Positions 17,529-48,007 of a DNA stretch of 64,000 nucleotides are shown here, piece by piece. Within the stretch, counting starts at the first letter, position 1. The number at the start of each line of letters is the position of its first letter. This DNA comes from a virus (Duplodnaviria; Caudoviricetes), in the IMG/VR virus record IMGVR_UViG_3300042445_001485, one strand, 5' to 3'. The notes beneath the pieces were generated by a model. It was not told where the DNA came from. It searched no databases and was given only the letters and a program-made list of their open reading frames with translations. The position numbers and the translations under genes are program-made.

Positions 17529-19037
17529 ATGGCTATTTCAACTCGTTTCCTTATTGATTTTCCTCTCACACCAAATCTTAGTATTACAGATACAGGTCAG
17601 GAAGGCATGCCGACCTACAACCATGATACCATTGATCGACGAATCAACGCTGTTGCGTCGGGCTTAACCCGTTTAAATTTTCCAGACAATAGTAGAATTA
17701 CAATTATAGATTATCTATCATATAATTTTGTTACATTCAACGTCGGCGTATACCGAGCCAGGCATACCATAGCACCGATTAATTTTAAACTTTCAGCCGA
17801 ACAGGTTGAACATTGTATTAGAGATTCGGGTTCTGTAATAGTTTTTTGCAATCAACATTTTACACATCTTGTACCACCTGGTATGAAATTTATTGTGTTT
17901 GATTCAACAGAATTCAATGATTTTTTAGGAGACGAGAATTTTATTCCCGTTCCACCTTCTACTAATTATGAAGATTTTGAAAATAGAAATGTAACAATGA
18001 TGTACACTTCGGGAACAACCGGTAATCCCAAAGGGGTAGTAAATAATTATAGAAATAGATTTTTTCAAATCAGCCGCGGAATTGACAATCCCATTGTCAA
18101 ATATAAACGATTGGTTTCGTTGGCTCCATTACCAATATATCATTTAGCAGGACTTAACAATATCGAGCAAGATATGTTTTTTAGTTATTCTGAAGAAACA
18201 CAGATTGTACTAATGCCACATTTTGATACTAAAAAATACATACAACACGTACAGGATTTTAAAATAACAAGATTGCGACTAGTCTCACCAATGATGGCTA
18301 TGGTTCTTCAAGAAACAGAATTACTAGAAAAAGCTGATTTTTCTCGCGTGGTAGGAATTGCATTAAACTCAAGTTTTGCTCCAAAGAAAATGCAAGATGA
18401 CATAAGAAAATACTTTAAAGATTTAAAATGGTTAGACAATCCCTACGGTTTAACGGAAACAGGTCCACTGTTTGGAAAAGAAAACCCCAGGAACTTGCCT
18501 AAACCGATGATGAGTGTGGGATATCCGCTGCCGGAGGTTAGTTGTCGTATTAACAAAGATAATGTACTCGAAGTTAAAGCACCAGCGTGTTTGTCTCAAT
18601 ACCATAATAGACCCGAGTTACAGACTTCGTTTACCGACGATGGATATTTTATCACAGGTGATTTATTTAGAGTTAACTATAATGGATTTTATTTTTACAT
18701 GGGTCGTGCCGATGACATGTTTAAAAGTGGTGGTGAAAAAATCTATCCATCTGAAATTGAACCAGTTATTGAACGCCACCCCGGTGTTGCGCTAAGTACG
18801 GTAGTGGGTGTAGAAGATGAAATCAAAGGGCATAAACCATATGCATTTGTAGAGCTCAAAATCGGAGCCAAAGCCACAGCCGAAGAAATTAAACAGTTTA
18901 CCATTGAAAATGTTGCAACATATCAAATTCCTCGTCGAGTATGGATTTTAGATTCATTGCCGAGAACCAACATAGGCAAGATTGATCGCAAAACATTAAA
19001 AAATCTTGCCATTGATCTTTTAAAGGAAAATACATGA
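17529..19037 (+). CDS. acyl-CoA synthetase / AMP-binding (ANL) enzyme
   Basis: YTSGTTGNPKG, YGLTETGP, TGDL, GRADDMFKSGGEKIYPSEIE, PRTNIGKIDR. Confidence 0.95.
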   Translation: MAISTRFLIDFPLTPNLSITDTGQEGMPTYNHDTIDRRINAVASGLTRLNFPDNSRITIIDYLSYNFVTFNVGVYRARHTIAPINFKLSAEQVEHCIRDSGSVIVFCNQHFTHLVPPGMKFIVFDSTEFNDFLGDENFIPVPPSTNYEDFENRNVTMMYTSGTTGNPKGVVNNYRNRFFQISRGIDNPIVKYKRLVSLAPLPIYHLAGLNNIEQDMFFSYSEETQIVLMPHFDTKKYIQHVQDFKITRLRLVSPMMAMVLQETELLEKADFSRVVGIALNSSFAPKKMQDDIRKYFKDLKWLDNPYGLTETGPLFGKENPRNLPKPMMSVGYPLPEVSCRINKDNVLEVKAPACLSQYHNRPELQTSFTDDGYFITGDLFRVNYNGFYFYMGRADDMFKSGGEKIYPSEIEPVIERHPGVALSTVVGVEDEIKGHKPYAFVELKIGAKATAEEIKQFTIENVATYQIPRRVWILDSLPRTNIGKIDRKTLKNLAIDLLKENT

Positions 19038-19804
19038 CATTTAACGCATGGGACACATTGGAAGGTAAAACTGCTGTGATAACCGGTGTTACCGGAGGAA
19101 TTGGGTTTGCTACCGCACAAAGACTTGCCAGACGCGGAGCCCGAATAATTGGTATAGTCAGAAGAAATTTAGAAGATGCACAGGCTAAATTAAACACATT
19201 ACCATGTAGTAGTAAAGAACCTCATCTAGCATTACTAGCAGATGTATCCAACAAGGTTCAACTACAAGAAGCAATTCTATCCATTGATCGTTGCGATATA
19301 TTGGTACAAAGCACTGGCAATACCAAAAGAATTCCACACGAAAAAATTCAGTTAATGACTGATACCTACTTTGATGAGATGACCAGAGATAACCTAAGAA
19401 GTTATTTTACTGTTATAAGGTCGTTTGAACCATTGCTGAGAAAAAGTCGAGAATCTGTCGTTGTCAATATTGGATCTGTTGCGGGCAATGCACACAGCGC
19501 CGGGGGCGGCAGCAATATTGCCTACTGTGCCGCCAAAGCCGGACTTGATGCATTGACTAGAAATTTATCCAAGGCATTAGCGCCAGACATTCGTGTGGTT
19601 GGTGTTAGTCCCGGTATAGTAGATACTACGTTTGTTACCAAGGCCATCGACAACTACCCTAATTTAGAGTCAATTGCCAATAGCACTCCACTTAAACGAA
19701 TTGCCACAGTAGAAGATATAGCGGCAAATGTAGAAGCTTTAACTACCTTAATGAGATATTCCACAGGCATTGTAATCTGTGTAGACGGAGGAAGAACCCT
19801 ATGA
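19034..19804 (+). CDS. short-chain dehydrogenase/reductase (SDR)
   Basis: TGVTGGIG Rossmann motif, YCAAK catalytic YxxxK, VSPG. Confidence 0.95.
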   Translation: MTFNAWDTLEGKTAVITGVTGGIGFATAQRLARRGARIIGIVRRNLEDAQAKLNTLPCSSKEPHLALLADVSNKVQLQEAILSIDRCDILVQSTGNTKRIPHEKIQLMTDTYFDEMTRDNLRSYFTVIRSFEPLLRKSRESVVVNIGSVAGNAHSAGGGSNIAYCAAKAGLDALTRNLSKALAPDIRVVGVSPGIVDTTFVTKAIDNYPNLESIANSTPLKRIATVEDIAANVEALTTLMRYSTGIVICVDGGRTL

Positions 19805-20694
19805 TCATCAGACCAGAAAAAACTATTATGACTTGCGCCATTACTGGCGCCATCACAGATCCCAATTCAACACCGTATTTGCCAATCAGTCCAGAAGAGA
19901 TAGCAGATAGTGCATTAGGTGCCGCAGAAGCAGGAGCCTCAATAGTGCATTTACATGTTAGAGATCCTGCAACTAAAATGGCCAGCATGAGCACCGAACT
20001 GTATATAAAAGTAGTTGAGATGATCAAAAAAGACAATCCAGATCTTATTATCAATTTGACCACAGGTCCTGGAGCACTATTTGTTCCCGGTGCTAGACTA
20101 TTGCAAGTTGGTGAAAAAAGTAGTGTCATGAGAAGTGCTAGACAGAGAACCGAACATATAACTGAAATTAGACCAGATATCTGTAGTTTTGATTTCAATA
20201 CCATGCATCATGGCGGACCAAGTATTCGTTTAAATTTTATGCCTGTGCTAAGAGAAATGGCAGTTATTATTAAAGAAGCAGGAACCAAACCTGAACTTGA
20301 ATGCTTTGACTCCGGAGATGTTAGAATTGCCATGCAGTTGCAAAAAGAAGGTTTAATTGAAGAACACCCGCTGTGGCAGTTTGCAATGGGTGTCAAATAT
20401 GGATGGGATAATACTCCCGAGGCATTAAACTATGCCCGATGTGCGATACCACACGGTTCGTTATGGTCGGCGTTTGGTATCAGTCGGGAAGAAATGCCAA
20501 TGGTGGCCAATACTTGGTTGTTAGGCGGGCATGTTAGGGTTGGTCTCGAAGACAACATTTACCTAAGTAAAAATGTGTTGGCAAAAACCAATGCTGAGTT
20601 AGTTACCAAAGGTCGTCGTGTTGTTGAGGATTTGGGTGGTCAGTTGGCCAACTATGCAGAAGCTAGGGCAATATTAAATCTCCCTAGCAAGTAA
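19801..20694 (+). CDS. beta-keto acid cleavage enzyme (BKACE / Kce / DUF849)
   Basis: TCAITGA, P-SPEEIA, AGASIVHLHVRD, GGHVRVGLEDN. Confidence 0.95.
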   Translation: MIIRPEKTIMTCAITGAITDPNSTPYLPISPEEIADSALGAAEAGASIVHLHVRDPATKMASMSTELYIKVVEMIKKDNPDLIINLTTGPGALFVPGARLLQVGEKSSVMRSARQRTEHITEIRPDICSFDFNTMHHGGPSIRLNFMPVLREMAVIIKEAGTKPELECFDSGDVRIAMQLQKEGLIEEHPLWQFAMGVKYGWDNTPEALNYARCAIPHGSLWSAFGISREEMPMVANTWLLGGHVRVGLEDNIYLSKNVLAKTNAELVTKGRRVVEDLGGQLANYAEARAILNLPSK

Positions 20695-23618: not shown

Positions 23619-24314
23619 TTACGCTAGATGCGTCATTAGCGCATCCATTTGTTCTATACCACCTCGGGACAACTGAAAGCCTTGTTGCCGGGCTTTGTCC
23701 ATGCGTTGATCGTATGTGGGGTGTGTGCTGTTGGGTTGGCTGGCTAATTTTTTCATATATTCCAACTCGCCTTTCTTGGCATGCATGAATTTAAACACAC
23801 CAGCTTTGTTGTAGCCCAGGGCTTTACATAACCTAACAGCAAAATCATCAGCATCCATTTCATCTTTACGGGATTGTTCTGGACTTGGCTCATCATCTAC
23901 ATGTCCTAGCGCAATGTGTCCTAGTTCATGTGCTATGGCAAAAGTCAATACATCTGCTGGAGCGTCCCAGAATACAGTTAAGTCTATGCTGATGTATCGG
24001 TTCTCAGGATCACTTTGTATGTATTGTCTATTAGACTTTACACCGATGGTAGCTCCCTGCAACGGTGCGGCCCATGAGGCACCTGCAGTTCTAATCAACT
24101 TGGCAAGTACAGCGTTACATTTTTCCTGTAAGGCCTGCATTCGTGGAGCCCAAATCTTAACCAAAGCCTGTGGGTCTTGTTTGGTTATGTCTTGGTATTC
24201 ACCGGCTTGTGCCGTGGAAGCCATTGACCCCAGGGCGGCTGCTCCTGCCGCACCGGCAAGGCCCTTGAGTATATCACGGCGACCTATTTCTGTGATAAAC
24301 TCACGAGCTCTCAT
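23619..24314 (-). CDS. M48-family zinc metallopeptidase with twin-arginine signal
   Basis: HELGH, E-x-D-A-D, S-T-H-P...R; GRRDILKG plus hydrophobic segment plus AQA. Confidence 0.85.
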   Translation of the reverse strand: MRAREFITEIGRRDILKGLAGAAGAAALGSMASTAQAGEYQDITKQDPQALVKIWAPRMQALQEKCNAVLAKLIRTAGASWAAPLQGATIGVKSNRQYIQSDPENRYISIDLTVFWDAPADVLTFAIAHELGHIALGHVDDEPSPEQSRKDEMDADDFAVRLCKALGYNKAGVFKFMHAKKGELEYMKKLASQPNSTHPTYDQRMDKARQQGFQLSRGGIEQMDALMTHLA

Positions 24315-25135
24315 TAGTCAGCGTTCTTCCCGCACTTGGCTCTTTTGGCATTTGTTAATGCACCAAAGTCAACTTTCCACTCTGCACCAGGTTGAACTTC
24401 TATCACACCTGCGGGGAACTTGTAGTCTACACCGGCTACTTTTTCTATCTCTGCAATGGACCGACGGAATACTGTCAAGTCGTTGCCCAGGTTAACATAG
24501 GGTTTGGTGTGCGGGAATACCCAACCTGCGGCCTGCTTGGTTGTGTTGTTGATCACAATCTTGTAGTATCCATGTGGAACAACAACACCGTTGCCGATAG
24601 TGGGATCACCGGCACCGTACAATGCACCCACATAAATTGTAAAGGGTTGATTCAGTTGTACAGTCCATCCACGAACTGCTGTTTCCAACAGTTTCCAAAT
24701 GCCACGATTCAAACTACCGTGTTGTGGATACATGTTGGTCATTAAGAAACTTTCGTATTCTACTTGTTGACTCCATGAAAGGTCACCGTCAGGTGCGGCA
24801 TGGCCTTTGTCGTAGCCTGTGCCAGCATAGTCGTCTGGGCGAGCACCTGTACCATTTAAACTGGCATCAGCAACAAACGCATTTGTGCGGGGAAAGCAAC
24901 CAAGTGCGTTCTGTGGTAGCAGGGTGTAGGCCACATAAGCAGGAATCTTTACCGGAGCATCATATGCCACAAGATATGCTTCACGGCAAATGGCCTGCAC
25001 TGGTCGTTTGACTACAGCAAATCCATAAGGGCTATGGACTGCACAGGCTTGTACAGGATTAGGAGGCCGTTGGTCCCAGGCTTGTGCAGAAAATACACCC
25101 GTTGCTAGGGCAATTGATAACAAAAACTTCTTCAT
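24314..25135 (-). CDS. secreted DNA/RNA non-specific endonuclease (NucA-like)
   Basis: Signal peptide; YDKGHAAP, LMTNMYPQ, LNRGIW. Confidence 0.93.
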   Translation of the reverse strand: MKKFLLSIALATGVFSAQAWDQRPPNPVQACAVHSPYGFAVVKRPVQAICREAYLVAYDAPVKIPAYVAYTLLPQNALGCFPRTNAFVADASLNGTGARPDDYAGTGYDKGHAAPDGDLSWSQQVEYESFLMTNMYPQHGSLNRGIWKLLETAVRGWTVQLNQPFTIYVGALYGAGDPTIGNGVVVPHGYYKIVINNTTKQAAGWVFPHTKPYVNLGNDLTVFRRSIAEIEKVAGVDYKFPAGVIEVQPGAEWKVDFGALTNAKRAKCGKNAD

Positions 25136-25159: not shown

Positions 25160-25774
25160 TTAACTATTTATGGCAGGATCTATGAAGCTTTGAGTGTAGT
25201 CGTAATTGACCATTGTGCTGTAGCTCTGTGTGCGTCGGCGCTCACTGTTGTCAGCATTGGGAATAACACGCAATATTTTTGCACCATTGCGTATATGGAA
25301 CTTGGCCACTGGATCTTTTTGTGCAGATAAAAACTCCATGATGGCATTCATCGTGGGTGGCTCGGCAAAATGTGCGCTCAAATTTGGAATAGGGCTCATT
25401 GTGACAAACTGTTGAATTTCAGGCCGGTTGGCATGAATCCAAGTGGCAGCTTCGCGAATTAGTCGAGCACCAGTGTTTTGTACACCGCTGGGTTTATCAG
25501 TTCTAAACACGCTGTAAAAGACGGCATGGTCTGCTTGAAGGCACACAGCACTAGCAACATCTAGTATCTCATCAATATTGTCGGTTAGACCTTGGATGTA
25601 GGCCACACACAACACCGCTGTGGGTACATTGTTCTCTATCCAGAAAAATATATTACGGTCGAATTCGCATCTTCGGTCAAGGCTACGACTCTCAGTTAAA
25701 CTGTGAACTGGGTCCTGATGAACATATTGTAAGTAATCTGGATGGAACTCTGCTGACCGTAAGTGAACAAGCAT
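25160..25774 (-). CDS. malonyl-CoA decarboxylase catalytic-domain-like protein
   Basis: AVFYSV, FVTMSPIP, DPVAKFHIRNGA, MVNYDY. Confidence 0.85.
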   Translation of the reverse strand: MLVHLRSAEFHPDYLQYVHQDPVHSLTESRSLDRRCEFDRNIFFWIENNVPTAVLCVAYIQGLTDNIDEILDVASAVCLQADHAVFYSVFRTDKPSGVQNTGARLIREAATWIHANRPEIQQFVTMSPIPNLSAHFAEPPTMNAIMEFLSAQKDPVAKFHIRNGAKILRVIPNADNSERRRTQSYSTMVNYDYTQSFIDPAINS

Positions 25775-26018
25775 ATTGAAAGCCCTCGTGCTATTATATG
25801 CGTATTTATTCTAGAATGAATAAATGATATAAATTAGTCTATAAATTTAAGATTGTTTGGCCGGCGTTGGCAAACGACCGTAGTTGACCCATTCCCAATC
25901 ATCGTCGGTCATTGGTAACCAATTGCACATGATCAATACCATCCGTAACGAACAGCCTTTTCAGCTCGCACACGACCATAGGCTTCAAAGAAAGCCCAAA
26001 CCTTTGTTAGAATTTTTT

Positions 26019-26171
26019 TCATATTGCCCACTTTTTTTGTTGTTCTTGGTTATAGAAATTGATCCAATACTCAACTTCGGCAGTTGATTTTGGTTGCTTG
26101 CTAACTACATAATATTCCACGCTGTCTTGGTAAGTTGGCGTTGTGAATAGACTTTTGATCCATTTTAACAT
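26019..26171 (-). CDS. small protein (DUF3563-like)
   Basis: AAGGAG Shine-Dalgarno, MLKWIKSLFTTPTYQDSVEYY. Confidence 0.55.
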   Translation of the reverse strand: MLKWIKSLFTTPTYQDSVEYYVVSKQPKSTAEVEYWINFYNQEQQKKWAI

Positions 26172-26236
26172 TTTAATCTCCTTAGTAGAAACCTTATTAG
26201 TGTTTCTACTAGTATTTATCATGCACTGCAACAAAG

Positions 26237-27111: not shown

Positions 27112-27615
27112 TCAGCACTTTGTAAAGTCTTGGTACTTGAACCACTTTTTCATTCTGTGAGCTGTTTTTAAGTTTATTCCGTATTCGGCCATTCTGTCAC
27201 GGTATATGAAGAAGGCTGATCGATGTGTCATTCTACGATCTTCCCCGCGACTTTCATAGTATTCGCCTACGACATCCCATTCGTATTGGTGTGCCATTTC
27301 GTGTGCCACTGTTGTGACCATCCACTGAACACAAAACCACTTGTCGCTGATCTTCATAGTGCAATACGTGCCGGGATTGGTCATTTCGTCATGTCCGGTA
27401 CATTCACCCCAGAATCCTTTGAATTGTCCCACTGTGATTGGTGGCCGCTTTAGTTCGTTGTCAAAAATATAACGGTTTACAATATTATATGTGTATATAA
27501 TTTCATCAGTGGTAGGTCGGTACAGTTTCCGTCGTTGCTCTGTTAAAGAGGGCAACGGAGCCTGCATCATCGCTCGAATTGGGTTGGGTCTTGCCATAGA
27601 AAATGCTCCAGACAA
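27112..27615 (-). CDS. SprT-like zinc metalloprotease
   Basis: HEMAH, plus downstream H...F. Confidence 0.75.
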   Translation of the reverse strand: MSGAFSMARPNPIRAMMQAPLPSLTEQRRKLYRPTTDEIIYTYNIVNRYIFDNELKRPPITVGQFKGFWGECTGHDEMTNPGTYCTMKISDKWFCVQWMVTTVAHEMAHQYEWDVVGEYYESRGEDRRMTHRSAFFIYRDRMAEYGINLKTAHRMKKWFKYQDFTKC

Positions 27616-27662: not shown

Positions 27663-28472
27663 TTATCTGAATGTAATTTGTCCAACTACAGCATTGGGTT
27701 TTGCCAATGCTTCTGCCCGCTTTTGCTTATATTCTGTGTTATCCACATCTAAGAGCTTGATTTCTGTACCGGATGTGGTACTAACCTTTTCTGCGGGTTT
27801 TGCGGCTTCGGGAACCACAACAGGCTCAACTTTAGATTGGGGTTGTACTATGGTTTCTCCACGATCCAGGCTTTCACGATCAAGCTCGGCCTTGCGATTG
27901 CGCTCAACTTGCTCTTTCAATTCCTGTTCTGCGCGACGGGCATTTACAGCCTGGTTTCGTTGTGCTCGAGATGCAAGTTCTGCAGTCAACAACTGATTGG
28001 CATCTCCTAGGGGGTAACGCATCAACACAAACACACGGAAGGTCGACCCTTCTTGTGTGATCTGACTGTCTACTTTGTGGTGCCCAATAATGGTTGCACT
28101 AGCAACTTTACGAGTCAACATCTCAGCACTCTCAGCACCATACTTGCCTCCGGTGTCTGTCTTGAAGCTCTTGATCATGGCTTCGACTTGACTCTTCATT
28201 TGGAATGCCAACTTGGCGTCGGCATCCAGCGTGGCTTTCTGCACAGTCATGCCCAAGAATGGACCTGTTGCTTCGCCCACAACAAAGATATGTTGTGCTG
28301 TGTTCTCAGGTGGTTGTATAAACCAGTCCGGAACTTTCAGTGTGGGCACCACTGTGCCTTGTGCTTTCAGCACCGTGGTAGGTAAGGTTTGTTCAACCTT
28401 GGTCTGTGGATTTGCCGCACAGCCTGCAAACAGCAAACTCAAAACACTCAATGCAATTAAACTACGATTCAT
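27663..28472 (-). CDS. lipoprotein (LPP20-like)
   Basis: Lipobox FAGC; VPDWF...A...A...A...LA pattern. Confidence 0.7.
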   Translation of the reverse strand: MNRSLIALSVLSLLFAGCAANPQTKVEQTLPTTVLKAQGTVVPTLKVPDWFIQPPENTAQHIFVVGEATGPFLGMTVQKATLDADAKLAFQMKSQVEAMIKSFKTDTGGKYGAESAEMLTRKVASATIIGHHKVDSQITQEGSTFRVFVLMRYPLGDANQLLTAELASRAQRNQAVNARRAEQELKEQVERNRKAELDRESLDRGETIVQPQSKVEPVVVPEAAKPAEKVSTTSGTEIKLLDVDNTEYKQKRAEALAKPNAVVGQITFR

Positions 28473-28524
28473 TTTAAACCTCTCGGGTTAGTTAATATAA
28501 CACAACTATACTATAGAACTCTTT

Positions 28525-29094
28525 TTAGAACAAGTCTACAACTTGCCATTTTCCGGGTTGCATAGTACACATGATTCCAGCAAAACCAACAGGTTTTCCC
28601 AAGTGTGCTTCTTTATAGGAAAACCACTTGCAGTCGGTGCCTTGGTGCCTAAATGGTCGAGGATAGCGGTGGAACACGCCCACTTCACTTTCCTGTATCC
28701 AATCACCAACCTGAATCCGTTCACGAATTCGGATAGGTGGGGCATCAGTACACACCATACTGGATTCTGAGTTAACCACAGGGTCATCTACAGGGATTAA
28801 AAATCTTGCCTGTGCAATATCACGAGCATTGGAACAGGCCTGCTGATCCGTCTCTGCGATTCCTTCGCCTTCTGCGTCTTGCCATTCGTTATTGATCTGC
28901 ACACGCATGGTGGCTATACATTTACGAAGCCCGTTATAGGGCAGTTTGATTTCTTTTACATCTGCAATTCGTTGCAATTGGCTGGTGCCAGAAACAACTG
29001 TTGCTGAACGCACATAACACTGGGCCGCCGCCGAAGTGGCCATAGCCAGTGCTATGGCCGTTATGAGCGGGCGCATTCTGTTCTTAGTGTCCAT
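28525..29094 (-). CDS. secreted Cys-containing hypothetical protein; probable start 29076
   Basis: Signal peptide ending AAA-QC. Confidence 0.7.
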   Translation of the reverse strand: MDTKNRMRPLITAIALAMATSAAAQCYVRSATVVSGTSQLQRIADVKEIKLPYNGLRKCIATMRVQINNEWQDAEGEGIAETDQQACSNARDIAQARFLIPVDDPVVNSESSMVCTDAPPIRIRERIQVGDWIQESEVGVFHRYPRPFRHQGTDCKWFSYKEAHLGKPVGFAGIMCTMQPGKWQVVDLF

Positions 29095-45910: not shown

Positions 45911-48007
45911 TTAAAAACGCATCATTCCCCGTATAAACCAATTGTTAGTGGCTATATCGTCTTTTTGCTGTCTACTTGCATACACACCAATCGATTGATC
46001 TCGTGCTGGACTAAAAGCAACTCCTACTTCGGTATTTCTATATCCGTTGCTGGTACTAGATACATCACCCGATACGGTAAACTCATCAATTGCTTTTGCT
46101 ACACGCACACCTGCTTCGGCATAACCTGTGGAATTATTAACACCATCTATAGTTCTAGCACTTTGTATATCGCCTGACTCAGTATAACCGTTTCTGCGTG
46201 AAGTACCAAAAGTGTAGCCCACATAAGGGCGTACTTCTGCGGATTCTACGGGCAAGGTTGGTACATATAATCTGTTGCTAATCCAGGTGTCTGTGCCATT
46301 GGTTGTGTATGCATTGTTGAACAATCCACCAACACTACGATTTGTGGCTATATTGTTTCTAGCATGACCCAAATTGGTTGCCAATATATGCCCGTCATCA
46401 AATGTATAGATGCTGTATAAACCTGCCGCAACTTTGCCTTGTGTGGTTGTGCTGTCAGTGCCGGTCATTGTGGTATTGAATTGACTGTATTGAGCACCAA
46501 CACGCCAATTTGGTTCAACTTTAACATCGCCACCAATGTTGTACATGTTGCTGGCAGCACCATAGCCGTCGCCCGCGCCAGTTGTTTGTCTACCACCGCG
46601 AATAAAGAAACTCTTTTGACCATCTTCGCTTTTGTAAACATCCATACGGAACGGATCCATGTTTAAACTGCGATTAATACCTGTGTTAAGGACGGACAAC
46701 TTGGCCTGTTGGTCAATACGACCACTGAAACTGTCATTGACCACTGCGGTATCCACATTGTTTTCTACCGTGACTATACTGGTAGGAGCCGCATCAGTGA
46801 ATGTAGTGGTACCATCACTCCATGTAGATGTGGTACGAACCCGAGTTGTCACTGTACGATCATATGGTGTTGTGGTATTTGTAGTTGTTTCTCTACCAAC
46901 AGTCTGTACTGTGGCAGTTTCACCCGGAGTATGATGCGCCAGGCTGGCAATGATGACCGGAAATGAGGTATTAATAGTTCGTGTGTCGGACACTGCAATG
47001 GTTGATGTTGCTGTGCTTACCACTGTAGGAGAACTACTACCGCCAGTTGCCGCCGCATCAGTTGCTGAACCAACATCAGTTAAAGTGCCGCCACCTGGAA
47101 CAGAGCCTGCCGTGCCGCCACCTGCACCTCCGGTTATGGCATAGTTAGCCGCGCCAAAAGCGTTTGGTCCGAATATGTAAGCATACTGAAAGTTAACTAT
47201 GTCACCAGGTGCTACATTGTTTACTAGAAAGCCAAGCCCGATTGTAACATCACCGCGACCGTAGTCTACGGTAACACCACCTGATGTGTATGGACTGTAC
47301 CCGTTGTAGTATATCACCGGGTTAGTGGTCCAATTGTTGGCGTCACCACCAATACCTGCGCCCACATTTGCGGCCGCACTATACAGGCCCAGGGCATAAC
47401 GACTGGTTGTGGCTTCAGCGAAGGCCACATTTGTGCGTGGGATGGCACCGTAGCCCAACACATTGTCTGTGGCACTGGTATCACCGGTCATGGGCATGGC
47501 GTCTGGATCAATGAAACGACCAAAGTACAATCTGCCTATAGCAACACTAGCGGTAATGCCGGTGTTGATGTTGATGTAGCGTTGACCGCTGGGTAAACTA
47601 TAGTTATTTGTGATGGTGAAGTCGCTAGTAGAGGCACTCCATATGGCACCGGCGGCTGTGGGTGTTCCAACCCAGGCGCCGGTTGTGATACTTCTAGCAC
47701 CATTATTGTTGTTTGTGTATGTACTAACTAGTGTTCCGCTACTGTCTTCTAAACGAACAGTAAAGCCTTCAAAAGGTGAACCGGGTGTTAGGTAGTCACC
47801 TTGACATGTATCGCACGGAAATGTACCGGTACCAGTGTTGTCGTACTGTAGACCGGGACGAGTACTACCACCTGAGCCCAAGGTACCAGTAGATAGGTTT
47901 ACACCTGCACGAACATATTCGTTTTCAATTATGACATTTTGTGATATGGCTGTGGTGGCCACGAAGACAGAGAAGGCCGCGAGGGCCTTCGAAAAATAAT
48001 AGCGCAT
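45911..48007 (-). CDS. autotransporter-like outer-membrane protein
   Basis: Signal peptide, Thr/Gly/Ser-rich passenger, about 270-aa C-terminal amphipathic beta-barrel ending in Phe. Confidence 0.8.
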   Translation of the reverse strand: MRYYFSKALAAFSVFVATTAISQNVIIENEYVRAGVNLSTGTLGSGGSTRPGLQYDNTGTGTFPCDTCQGDYLTPGSPFEGFTVRLEDSSGTLVSTYTNNNNGARSITTGAWVGTPTAAGAIWSASTSDFTITNNYSLPSGQRYININTGITASVAIGRLYFGRFIDPDAMPMTGDTSATDNVLGYGAIPRTNVAFAEATTSRYALGLYSAAANVGAGIGGDANNWTTNPVIYYNGYSPYTSGGVTVDYGRGDVTIGLGFLVNNVAPGDIVNFQYAYIFGPNAFGAANYAITGGAGGGTAGSVPGGGTLTDVGSATDAAATGGSSSPTVVSTATSTIAVSDTRTINTSFPVIIASLAHHTPGETATVQTVGRETTTNTTTPYDRTVTTRVRTTSTWSDGTTTFTDAAPTSIVTVENNVDTAVVNDSFSGRIDQQAKLSVLNTGINRSLNMDPFRMDVYKSEDGQKSFFIRGGRQTTGAGDGYGAASNMYNIGGDVKVEPNWRVGAQYSQFNTTMTGTDSTTTQGKVAAGLYSIYTFDDGHILATNLGHARNNIATNRSVGGLFNNAYTTNGTDTWISNRLYVPTLPVESAEVRPYVGYTFGTSRRNGYTESGDIQSARTIDGVNNSTGYAEAGVRVAKAIDEFTVSGDVSSTSNGYRNTEVGVAFSPARDQSIGVYASRQQKDDIATNNWFIRGMMRF

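What the first reader, a model, noticed from the sequence alone, without database searches (positions are those of the whole stretch)
25160..25774. Minimal stand-alone malonyl-CoA decarboxylase-like domain
The 204-aa protein keeps the MCD catalytic-domain motifs (FYS, T-x-SPIP with the catalytic Ser, DPVAxFHxxNGA with the catalytic His, MVNY-x-Y). It lacks the N-terminal helical domain of cellular MCDs, which are about twice as long. If active, it would drain malonyl-CoA to acetyl-CoA, shutting down host fatty-acid synthesis and feeding acetyl-CoA to BKACE. Alternatively the GNAT-like fold has been repurposed.
Basis: partly seen in the sequence, partly recalled or inferred. Interest (0 to 1): 0.6.

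Follow-up and report, generated by a model that had tools for sequence, protein, structure and literature searches.

The report
Phage-borne minimal malonyl-CoA decarboxylase
A giant lake-water phage carries a half-size version of malonyl-CoA decarboxylase, reduced to the catalytic core with every known catalytic residue kept; the same short form recurs in many uncultured large phages, so it probably lets them destroy the host's building block for fatty acids, though no one has tested this.

Summary
The ORF at 25160-25774 (-) encodes 204 aa and scores 99 bits on Pfam MCD (PF05292).

It is one member of a monophyletic clade of 185-224-aa proteins under purifying selection. The clade occurs almost only on uncultured phage contigs, up to 355 kb. 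It is absent from deposited phage genomes, PHROGs and the BFVD viral structure library.

Compared with cellular MCDs it lacks two things: the N-terminal helical oligomerisation domain, and the helical insert between strands beta5 and beta6.

It keeps Phe86, Ser127, His160, Tyr193 and Asp175, which match human Phe288, Ser329, His423 and Tyr456 and R. palustris Asp404. The AlphaFold model (pLDDT 94.5) matches human MCD best (Z 22.1). Polyketide GNAT-like decarboxylases come next (Z 17-18), and ordinary acetyltransferases are well below (Z 13.2 or less).

The best reading is an active, cofactor-free malonyl-thioester decarboxylase that acts on host pools.

The proposed link to the BKACE operon holds only in the window and its closest relatives. 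Seven other phage records with the short form have no BKACE.

The scan's first stage noted a similar 206-aa gene in another genome (e1-5798112). I found no paper describing a phage MCD. Activity, substrate carrier and physiological role are all untested.

The parts
25160..25774 (-). Gene for the 204-aa minimal malonyl-CoA decarboxylase-like protein (catalytic GNAT-type core only)
   Evidence: ORF. Pfam PF05292 at 99 bits. 118 homologues of 198-216 aa. AlphaFold model with pLDDT 94.5. Best structural match is human MCD, Z 22.1. dN/dS 0.135 against L034.
25783..25787 (-). GAGGG, a likely ribosome-binding site 8 nt upstream of the ATG
   Evidence: Read from the sequence. Inference only.
25793..25798 (-). 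TATAAT hexamer 18 nt upstream of the ATG, a possible -10 element with no good -35
   Evidence: Read from the sequence. The consensus scan did not list it as a full promoter. Weak inference.
25394..25396 (-). Codon of Ser127, equivalent to the catalytic Ser329 of human MCD
   Evidence: HMMER alignments to 2ygw and 4ks9. Invariant in 29 of 29 clade members. The S329A mutant loses 110-fold in kcat (PMC3701320).
25295..25297 (-). Codon of His160, equivalent to the catalytic His423 of human MCD
   Evidence: PMC3701320.
24314..25135 (-). Downstream neighbour, probably co-transcribed (24-nt gap): Endonuclease_NS nuclease with an N-terminal signal peptide. It is a syntenic partner, not shown to be functionally linked.
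   Evidence: Pfam PF01223 at 132 bits. It lies next to or near the short MCD in 10 loci.

Best explanation
The gene encodes an active, cofactor-independent decarboxylase of malonyl-thioesters, most likely malonyl-CoA to acetyl-CoA plus CO2. It is reduced to the GNAT-type catalytic core of the MCD family.

Inferred chemistry, by homology with human MCD and CurA: the thioester carbonyl is polarised by the Ser127/His160 dyad, with His160 held by Tyr193. CO2 leaves over Phe86. Ser127 protonates the enolate or carbanion.

The protein has lost the N-terminal helical domain that oligomerises cellular MCDs and the beta5-beta6 helical insert. It therefore has about the size and layout of the stand-alone GNAT-like decarboxylase domains of polyketide loading modules.

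It has no constant phage-encoded metabolic partner. It is therefore inferred to act on the host pool as a host-takeover or auxiliary metabolic enzyme. It would remove the committed precursor of type II fatty-acid synthesis and return C2 units to acetyl-CoA, saving the NADPH and ATP that lipid synthesis would use.

Shown here: family membership, fold, conservation of catalytic residues, purifying selection, phage restriction. Inferred: activity, substrate, physiological effect.
For: - Family: Pfam MCD at 99 bits. A profile of the clade hits only MCDs in the PDB, at E 1e-19 to 1e-26.
- Catalytic residues: all residues that Froese et al. 2013 implicate are present and invariant in 29 clade members that are only 38-91% identical to the window protein. 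They are F86=F288, S127=S329, H160=H423, Y193=Y456 (human numbering) and D175=RpMCD D404. K/R158 matches RpMCD/CurA Arg387, which contacts the 3'-phosphate of CoA.
- Wider conservation: 32 of the 41 alignable columns that are at least 90% conserved in 79 full-length MCDs are retained.
- Structure: AlphaFold model with pLDDT 94.5 and pTM 0.90. The top structural matches are all decarboxylases: human MCD Z 22.1 (198 residues, rmsd 2.8), CmMCD 18.4, SxtA 18.0, CurA GNATL 17.4 and GphF 17.2. Ordinary acetyltransferases reach Z 13.2 or less (Foldseek agrees).
- Selection: dN/dS 0.135 against L034, with synonymous sites saturated against more distant relatives.
- Clade: monophyletic, SH-aLRT 97, branch length 0.53. 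It scores 143-293 bits on its own profile, against 126 or less for other MCDs.
- Phage context throughout. ESM Atlas clusters are 96% and 79% Viruses.
- No constant partner: BKACE in 0 of 7 records, AMP-binding in 0 of 5, ACP in 2 of 5.
Against: - No activity data exist, and no model with ligand could be inspected.
- The beta4-alpha4 loop (GNAT motif A), which binds the CoA pyrophosphate, has diverged. The Gly and Leu that are 99-100% conserved in that loop of cellular MCDs are lost. The clade has its own conserved Asn100 and an invariant Arg180 where cellular MCDs have Gly. The carrier (CoA or ACP) and the exact acyl group are therefore open.
- A His that is 99% conserved in cellular MCDs is Glu47 here.
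- The structurally similar polyketide domains act on ACP-bound substrates (my own knowledge of Skiba et al. 2020, not retrieved here).
- A malonyl-CoA drain running alongside an active host acetyl-CoA carboxylase would be an ATP-wasting cycle. That is an awkward cost for a phage unless carboxylase flux also falls.
- The neighbouring genes are mostly nucleases, proteases and nucleotide enzymes, which say nothing about lipid metabolism.
Confidence: 0.6

Rival explanations
1. It has the same decarboxylase chemistry but a different physiological substrate: malonyl-ACP, giving acetyl-ACP as the polyketide GNAT-like domains do, or another beta-carboxyacyl thioester such as methylmalonyl-CoA. In that case it would supply an acyl primer or donor to a phage pathway rather than drain host malonyl-CoA.
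For: - The size and insert-free layout equal those of the CurA and GphF GNAT-like decarboxylase domains (199-203 and 195 aa solved; Z 17.2-17.4).
- The CoA pyrophosphate loop has diverged from cellular MCDs, and the clade has its own invariant Arg180.
- A phage ACP-like gene is present in 2 of 5 records, once only 8 kb away. An earlier first-stage note on another genome also mentions an ACP.
- GNAT and NT5C-like genes recur beside it, as separate genes or fused.
Against: - Sequence and fold are clearly closer to true MCDs than to the polyketide domains: Z 22.1 against 17-18, and 26% against 16% identity.
- A basic residue is kept at the position that contacts the CoA 3'-phosphate, a group that ACP-bound pantetheine lacks.
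- The record rated 100% complete (355 kb) has no ACP, no acyl-CoA ligase and no BKACE.
- Asp175 replaces the Arg that CurA uses.
Confidence: 0.22
2. The fold has been repurposed as an acyltransferase, acetylating or malonylating a host or phage protein, nucleotide or other amine or thiol, with decarboxylation lost or secondary.
For: - The GNAT superfamily fold is shared.
- CurA was first described as a dual decarboxylase and S-acetyltransferase (PMC3701320).
- The loss of the beta5-beta6 insert re-exposes the GNAT sheet edge, where acceptor substrates or partners often bind. This is inference.
Against: - No acetyltransferase Pfam family matches; MCD is the only hit.
- The GNAT general-acid Tyr position is His, and the general-base Glu of canonical GNATs is not conserved in MCD or CurA.
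- The Arg404 that may be important for CurA's S-transfer is Asp175, as in MCDs, which lack transferase activity.
- Ordinary acetyltransferases score far lower (Z 13.2 or less, 5-15% identity).
Confidence: 0.08
3. It is an inactive remnant or a CoA-binding regulatory protein: a truncated capture of a cellular MCD gene that no longer catalyses anything.
For: It lacks two structural elements found in all four solved MCDs. The oligomerisation domain might be needed for stability or activity.
Against: - There are 48 invariant columns across members only 38-91% identical to the window protein, including every catalytic residue.
- dN/dS is 0.135.
- The clade is kept in several large-phage lineages with different neighbourhoods.
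- The compact fold is predicted with confidence.
- In solved MCDs the other subunits contribute little or nothing to the active site.
Confidence: 0.05

Closest known systems
Malonyl-CoA decarboxylase (EC 4.1.1.9; Pfam PF05292 plus PF17408; human MLYCD in PDB 2YGW and 4F0X; bacterial MCDs in 4KS9, 4KSA and 4KSF; rhizobial MatA)
   Same: GNAT-type catalytic domain with the same Ser/His dyad, the Tyr that holds the His, the Phe over which CO2 leaves, and the conserved Asp. It is the best sequence and structure match: Z 22.1, 26% identity, 198 of 204 residues aligned.
   Different: It is half the length. It has no N-terminal helical oligomerisation domain (130-150 aa) and no beta5-beta6 helical insert (27 against a median of 74 residues). 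The CoA pyrophosphate loop has diverged, and there is a clade-specific invariant Arg180. It is phage-encoded and forms its own clade.
GNAT-like decarboxylase domains of polyketide and saxitoxin loading modules (CurA GNATL 2REE/2REF, GphF 6MFC, SxtA 7UCI)
   Same: About the same size (about 195-205 aa), the same insert-free GNAT core, and a Thr/Ser-His dyad. Z 17.2-18.0.
   Different: Those are domains inside megasynthases, next to carrier-protein domains. This protein is free-standing and no synthase is nearby. Identity is only 16%. CurA has Arg404 where this protein, like MCDs, has Asp.
Short MCD-like proteins of 212-340 aa (for example P0162, P0138, P0232; nearest ESM Atlas cluster 67% Bacteria, commonest Actinomycetota)
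   Same: Short or absent N-terminal region and a short insert. The profile matches them as a single stretch.
   Different: They form a separate clade nested among cellular MCDs, not sister to the phage clade. They keep the cellular-type TLSPIPG motif. Some may be truncated gene calls.
MadA/MadB (YiiD) malonyl-ACP decarboxylases
   Same: They carry out the same net reaction type, a malonyl-thioester converted to an acetyl-thioester, in bacteria (PMC8666670).
   Different: Catalysis there sits in a hot-dog domain, and the GNAT domain of MadA is not the decarboxylase. There is no homology to the protein studied here.

Membership tests
Malonyl-CoA decarboxylase family (Pfam PF05292 catalytic domain) | Sequence match to the family profile above the curated threshold | tested here: met
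   99 bits against a cut-off of 23.2, E 4.4e-28. A profile of the clade hits only MCD chains in the PDB.
Malonyl-CoA decarboxylase family (Pfam PF05292 catalytic domain) | His-Ser catalytic dyad (human His423 and Ser329) | tested here: met
   His160 and Ser127 align to them and are invariant in 29 of 29 members. Their roles come from PMC3701320.
Malonyl-CoA decarboxylase family (Pfam PF05292 catalytic domain) | Supporting active-site residues: the Tyr that holds the His (Tyr456), the Phe on beta4 (Phe288), and an Asp in place of CurA Arg404 | tested here: met
   Tyr193, Phe86 and Asp175 are all invariant.
Malonyl-CoA decarboxylase family (Pfam PF05292 catalytic domain) | GNAT-type catalytic fold closest to solved MCDs | tested here: met
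   Model pLDDT 94.5. 2ygw Z 22.1 and 4ks9 Z 18.4. Foldseek E about 1e-12, TM 0.72-0.80.
Malonyl-CoA decarboxylase family (Pfam PF05292 catalytic domain) | N-terminal helical oligomerisation domain (MCD_N, 130-150 aa) | tested here: not met
   The protein starts at the catalytic domain. There is no upstream ORF with MCD_N. No longer fused form was found (weak evidence). MCD_N was not found in 5 phage records, but the control genomes gave no signal either, so that search is inconclusive.
Malonyl-CoA decarboxylase family (Pfam PF05292 catalytic domain) | Helical insert between beta5 and beta6 (3-5 helices in solved MCDs) | tested here: not met
   27 residues against a median of 74 (range 40-107) in 79 full-length MCDs. 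Pfam positions 152-210 are unmatched.
Malonyl-CoA decarboxylase family (Pfam PF05292 catalytic domain) | CoA-binding loop, MCD form of GNAT motif A: (Q/R/A)xxxx(G/A)xxL | tested here: inconclusive
   Gly102 and Leu105 are kept. The first position is variable, and the Gly and Leu that are 99-100% conserved earlier in the cellular loop are lost. A basic residue is kept at the position that contacts the 3'-phosphate.
Malonyl-CoA decarboxylase family (Pfam PF05292 catalytic domain) | Decarboxylation of malonyl-CoA to acetyl-CoA | not testable with these tools
   This needs an enzyme assay.
Polyketide loading-module GNAT-like decarboxylases (CurA, GphF, SxtA) | Insert-free GNAT core of about 200 aa with a Thr/Ser-His dyad | tested here: met
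   Z 17.2-18.0 over 180-182 residues. The dyad is present.
Polyketide loading-module GNAT-like decarboxylases (CurA, GphF, SxtA) | Embedded in a synthase module next to a carrier-protein domain | tested here: not met
   It is a free-standing 204-aa gene. No synthase or ACP is among its neighbours in the window or in 19 contexts. ACP occurs in only 2 of 5 records.
Canonical GNAT N-acetyltransferases | Match to acetyltransferase profiles and the Tyr general acid | tested here: not met
   No Acetyltransf_* Pfam hit. The Tyr position is His160 by the equivalence given in PMC3701320. Structural Z is 13.2 or less.

The most novel reading that the evidence does not exclude
The short MCD is not a simple metabolite drain. 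Instead it is the priming enzyme of an undescribed phage modification pathway. As the GNAT-like decarboxylase does at the head of a polyketide line, it would turn a malonyl-thioester into the acyl donor used by the GNAT/NT5C-like proteins (separate or fused) and the large amidoligase-like protein. These recur beside it in several large-phage lineages and could modify a nucleotide, DNA base or protein.
Probability: 0.1. Interest if true: 0.8.

Novelty: new variant of a known kind. Interest (0 to 1): 0.5.

Why it matters
If it is active, this would be the first virus-encoded malonyl-CoA decarboxylase that I could find described in any searched source. It would point to a new route of host takeover: cutting off type II fatty-acid synthesis at its committed precursor and recycling the carbon to acetyl-CoA.

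It would also define the smallest natural MCD, 204 aa against about 450. That would show that neither the oligomerisation domain nor the beta5-beta6 insert is needed for catalysis. It would link cellular MCDs structurally to the decarboxylase domains of polyketide loading modules.

A compact, probably monomeric MCD would be a convenient tool for manipulating malonyl-CoA levels in cells. The family is common in freshwater large-phage metagenomes but absent from cultured phages, so its ecological weight is unmeasured.

Tried and rejected
- Cultured or deposited phages: tblastn of the protein and megablast of 5 kb against 50,697 phage records found nothing. PHROGs, NCBIfam and PADLOC gave no hit for the protein. 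BFVD gave only generic GNATs, TM 0.52 or less.
- Fused or longer forms: a search among proteins of 358-2000 aa found none at E 1e-10 or better. By the tool's own caveat this is weak evidence.
- Homodimer: complex prediction with two copies gave 'no answer' (score 0.00). This is neither support nor evidence against oligomerisation.
- BKACE coupling as a general rule: rejected, 0 of 7 records.
- Acyl-CoA ligase coupling: 0 of 5 records.
- Split MCD_N elsewhere in phage genomes: not found in 5 records, but the controls gave no signal either, so this is inconclusive.
- T4-type late promoter: TATAAATA is not enriched in the window (4 found, 3.7 expected) and none lies upstream of this gene. Timing of expression is unknown.
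- Cellular carriers: a pattern-limited scan of 185,579 species genomes found one hit, a 3.3-kb contig in a Polynucleobacter MAG. Its neighbours are 86-95% identical to those on viral contig L012, so it is a binned phage fragment and at most a weak host hint.
- Literature: two full-text searches for phage-encoded MCD found nothing relevant.

Full report

Yes. The minus strand at 25160-25774 holds a 204-codon ATG-initiated ORF. A GAGGG ribosome-binding site lies 8 nt upstream.

The protein matches Pfam PF05292 (malonyl-CoA decarboxylase C-terminal domain) at 99 bits, E 4.4e-28, against a curated cut-off of 23.2.
- F86-Y-S88
- T125-M-S127-P-I-P130
- D154-PVAKFH160-IRNGA165
- M188-VNY191-D-Y193

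PHROGs, NCBIfam and PADLOC have no model that matches it.

**2. Genome setting**

The window is phage DNA. It encodes a ribonucleotide reductase, an ATP-dependent DNA ligase, UvdE, a GP88-like protein, a dCMP-deaminase fusion, a radical-SAM/SPASM enzyme and many ORFs with no family.

No whole genome is held for the window. Earlier notes of this scan call it a giant lake-water T4-type phage. I did not re-test that classification.

The gene sits in a minus-strand run in this order: SprT-like (27112-27615), a 284-aa unknown, a 460-bp stretch with only tiny ORFs, the MCD-like gene, then, 24 nt later, an Endonuclease_NS nuclease with a signal peptide (24314-25135).

**3. The family**

A search of 5.8 billion proteins returned 118 homologues of 198-216 aa, at 38-91% identity. 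All carry PF05292, and some lie on contigs of 105-225 kb.

An exhaustive profile search of 1.84 billion cluster representatives splits the hits in two:
- About 17 clusters of 185-224 aa are matched as one stretch at 143-293 bits.
- Ordinary MCDs (mostly 400-560 aa) score 126 bits or less and are matched as two stretches, because they carry an insert that the short form lacks.

A maximum-likelihood tree of 86 sequences puts all 23 short forms in one clade (SH-aLRT 97, stem branch 0.53), separate from 63 other MCDs. A second, unrelated group of short (212-340 aa) proteins nests among the cellular enzymes. The nearest ESM Atlas cluster for that group is mostly bacterial, with Actinomycetota commonest.

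Where the clade occurs:
- IMG/VR holds 21 loci of the clade, on contigs up to 354,680 bp.
- Every context I fetched looks like phage.
- The nearest ESM Atlas clusters are 96% and 79% Viruses.
- Among 185,579 species genomes, a pattern-limited scan found only a 3.3-kb contig in a Polynucleobacter MAG. Its other genes are 86-95% identical to those of viral contig L012, so it is a binned phage fragment.
- No deposited phage genome has the gene, and BFVD holds no similar structure.

**4. Anatomy compared with solved MCDs**

Froese et al. 2013 (PMC3701320) describe the following for MCD:
- an N-terminal helical domain of 130-150 residues that mediates oligomerisation;
- a GNAT-type catalytic domain of 270-300 residues;
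- a poorly conserved insert of three to five helices between beta5 and beta6;
- a catalytic His-Ser dyad, human His423 and Ser329 (S329A loses 110-fold in kcat);
- Tyr456, which holds the His;
- Phe288, under the leaving carboxylate;
- a conserved Asp where CurA has Arg404;
- in R. palustris MCD and CurA, Arg387, which contacts the 3'-phosphate of CoA.

HMMER alignments to 2YGW, 4F0X, 4KS9, 4KSA and 4KSF give these equivalences, which I checked against the paper's residue numbers:

| Phage protein | Solved MCD or CurA residue |
|---|---|
| Phe86 | human Phe288 |
| Ser127 | human Ser329 |
| His160 | human His423 |
| Tyr193 | human Tyr456 |
| Asp175 | R. palustris Asp404 |
| Lys158 (Lys or Arg across the clade) | R. 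palustris and CurA Arg387 |

The first five are invariant in 29 clade members.

In an alignment with 79 full-length MCDs, 47 columns are at least 90% conserved in the cellular enzymes. Of these, 41 can be aligned to the short form, and 32 are retained there.

What is missing:
- The whole N-terminal domain. Cellular MCDs have a median of 164 residues before the position of residue 1.
- The beta5-beta6 insert. There are 27 residues between the catalytic Ser and the DPV motif, against a median of 74.

What has changed:
- The beta4-alpha4 loop, which binds the CoA pyrophosphate, has lost a cellular Gly and Leu.
- A cellular His is Glu47 here.
- The clade has its own invariant Asp21, Pro22, Phe90, Leu132 and Arg180.

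**5. Structure**

AlphaFold2 with the clade alignment gives a confident model: pLDDT 94.5, pTM 0.90.

An all-against-representatives structural search ranks the matches as follows:

| Match | Z score | Note |
|---|---|---|
| Human MCD | 22.1 | 198 of 204 residues, rmsd 2.8, residues 196-467 |
| C. metallidurans MCD | 18.4 | |
| SxtA decarboxylase domain | 18.0 | |
| CurA GNATL | 17.4 | |
| GphF GNAT-like decarboxylase | 17.2 | |
| Ordinary N-acetyltransferases | 13.2 or less | |

Foldseek gives the same order. The five best matches are all thioester decarboxylases. The phage protein also has the size and insert-free layout of the polyketide decarboxylase domains.

**6. Selection**

dN/dS against the 83%-identical relative L034 is 0.135. 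Against more distant relatives, synonymous sites are saturated while pN stays at 0.20-0.24. The clade alignment has 48 invariant columns. This is a working protein.

**7. Partners and context**

That operon is also present about 3.5 kb from the gene in the close relatives L034 and L035.

The link does not hold more widely:
- None of seven other IMG/VR records carrying the short MCD has a BKACE. These include one 355-kb record rated 100% complete and one 261-kb record rated 74% complete.
- None of five has an AMP-binding ligase.
- Two of five have an ACP-like gene.

Genes that recur near the short MCD across lineages:
- a ClpP-like protease, sometimes overlapping the MCD start;
- a radical-SAM enzyme;
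- an Endonuclease_NS or SNase nuclease;
- a SprT-like protein;
- a 740-868-aa protein with a weak Amidoligase_2 match;
- a GNAT acetyltransferase plus an NT5C-like protein. These are separate genes in six loci and fused in L019 (723 aa) and L016 (1020 aa, with a poly(A)-polymerase head domain).

More distant members sit beside RNA ligase, nucleoside deoxyribosyltransferase, or a phosphatase/kinase run.

These phages are related and share gene order, so these co-occurrences are not independent observations. None of the neighbours is a lipid or CoA enzyme. I conclude that the enzyme has no obligatory phage partner and most likely acts on a host pool.

**8. Mechanism and rivals**

Best reading (0.6): an active, cofactor-free decarboxylase that converts malonyl-CoA to acetyl-CoA and CO2 with the Ser127/His160/Tyr193/Phe86 machinery. 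It would work as a minimal enzyme, possibly a monomer. In vivo it would deplete the committed precursor of type II fatty-acid synthesis. The chemistry is inferred from homology. The physiological consequence is inference only.

Rival 1 (0.22): the same chemistry on malonyl-ACP or another beta-carboxyacyl thioester, feeding a phage pathway. The diverged pyrophosphate loop, Arg180 and the polyketide-like layout favour this. The retained basic residue at the 3'-phosphate contact position and the closer kinship to true MCDs argue against it.

Rival 2 (0.08): a repurposed acyltransferase. This is disfavoured by the His in place of the GNAT Tyr, by Asp175 in place of CurA Arg404, and by the absence of any acetyltransferase profile match.

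Rival 3 (0.05): an inactive remnant. This is contradicted by the conservation.

**9. Comparison and novelty**

By profile, fold and catalytic residues the protein belongs to the MCD catalytic-domain family. It fails two architectural features of all solved MCDs: the N-terminal domain and the beta5-beta6 insert. It works like an MCD but looks like a polyketide GNAT-like decarboxylase domain set free.

Databases already label some members 'malonyl-CoA decarboxylase' automatically. I found no paper on a phage MCD in two full-text searches. No member occurs in cultured-phage collections.

I rate it a new variant of a known kind, of moderate interest (0.5). It is real, conserved, phage-specific and testable, but its function is predicted largely by straightforward homology.

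The scan's first stage had noted a similar 206-aa gene in another genome (e1-5798112).

**10. Limits**

- No enzyme data exist.
- The homodimer prediction gave no verdict.
- The genome-wide cellular scan used narrow peptide patterns, so distant cellular members of the clade could have been missed.
- The MCD_N search in phage records had silent controls.

Noticed in passing
L019:6726-8897 and L016:11059-14121; also L001:8461-9960: GNAT acetyltransferase and NT5C-like (deoxynucleotidase) modules recur within one or two genes of the short MCD. They are separate genes in six loci. They are fused in L019 (723 aa) and in L016 (1020 aa, with a poly(A)-polymerase/CCA-adding head domain). The substrate is unknown.
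   Followed up: partly
L001:10638-13244, L005:10847-13414, L003:10611-13133: A protein of 740-868 aa with a weak Amidoligase_2 match lies directly downstream of the short MCD in about 10 loci. It is absent within 10 kb of the gene in the window.
   Followed up: partly
L012:9372-10567, L016:9390-10576: A ClpP-like protease gene ends 4 nt inside the start of the short MCD gene, which suggests translational coupling. ClpP is the most frequent neighbour (16 of 28 loci) but is missing within 10 kb of the gene in the window.
   Followed up: no
window 25775-26236: In the 83%-identical relatives (L034-L036) an NT5C-like gene of 311 aa sits immediately upstream of the MCD gene. In the window that slot holds only tiny ORFs of about 27-50 codons, which suggests recent gene loss or replacement.
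   Followed up: partly
window 23619-25135 and 27663-29094: A run of predicted exported proteins surrounds the cytoplasmic MCD-like gene: a nuclease with a signal peptide, an M48-like peptidase with a Tat signal, a lipoprotein-like 269-aa protein conserved in 14 loci, and a 189-aa protein with a signal peptide.
   Followed up: no
window 45911-48007 (-): A 698-aa protein with an autotransporter beta-domain (PF03797, 57.7 bits), which is unusual cargo for a phage.
   Followed up: no
window 17529-20694 (+): The acyl-CoA ligase / SDR / BKACE operon (BKACE 295 bits) is conserved in the close relatives L034 and L035. It is absent from seven other large-phage records that carry the short MCD, so the two features are inherited independently.
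   Followed up: partly
P0162, P0138, P0232, P0133 (protein ids): A separate clade of short MCD-like proteins (212-340 aa) has a reduced or absent N-terminal domain. The nearest ESM Atlas cluster (291-aa representative) is 67% Bacteria, commonest Actinomycetota. This may be an independent case of MCD minimisation, or some may be truncated gene calls.
   Followed up: partly
L029 (CAYVBV010000165.1, 3345 bp): A contig binned into a Polynucleobacter MAG is a fragment of a phage like IMG/VR contig L012; neighbouring genes are 86-95% identical at the protein level. It is at most a weak hint that the host is Polynucleobacter.
   Followed up: partly
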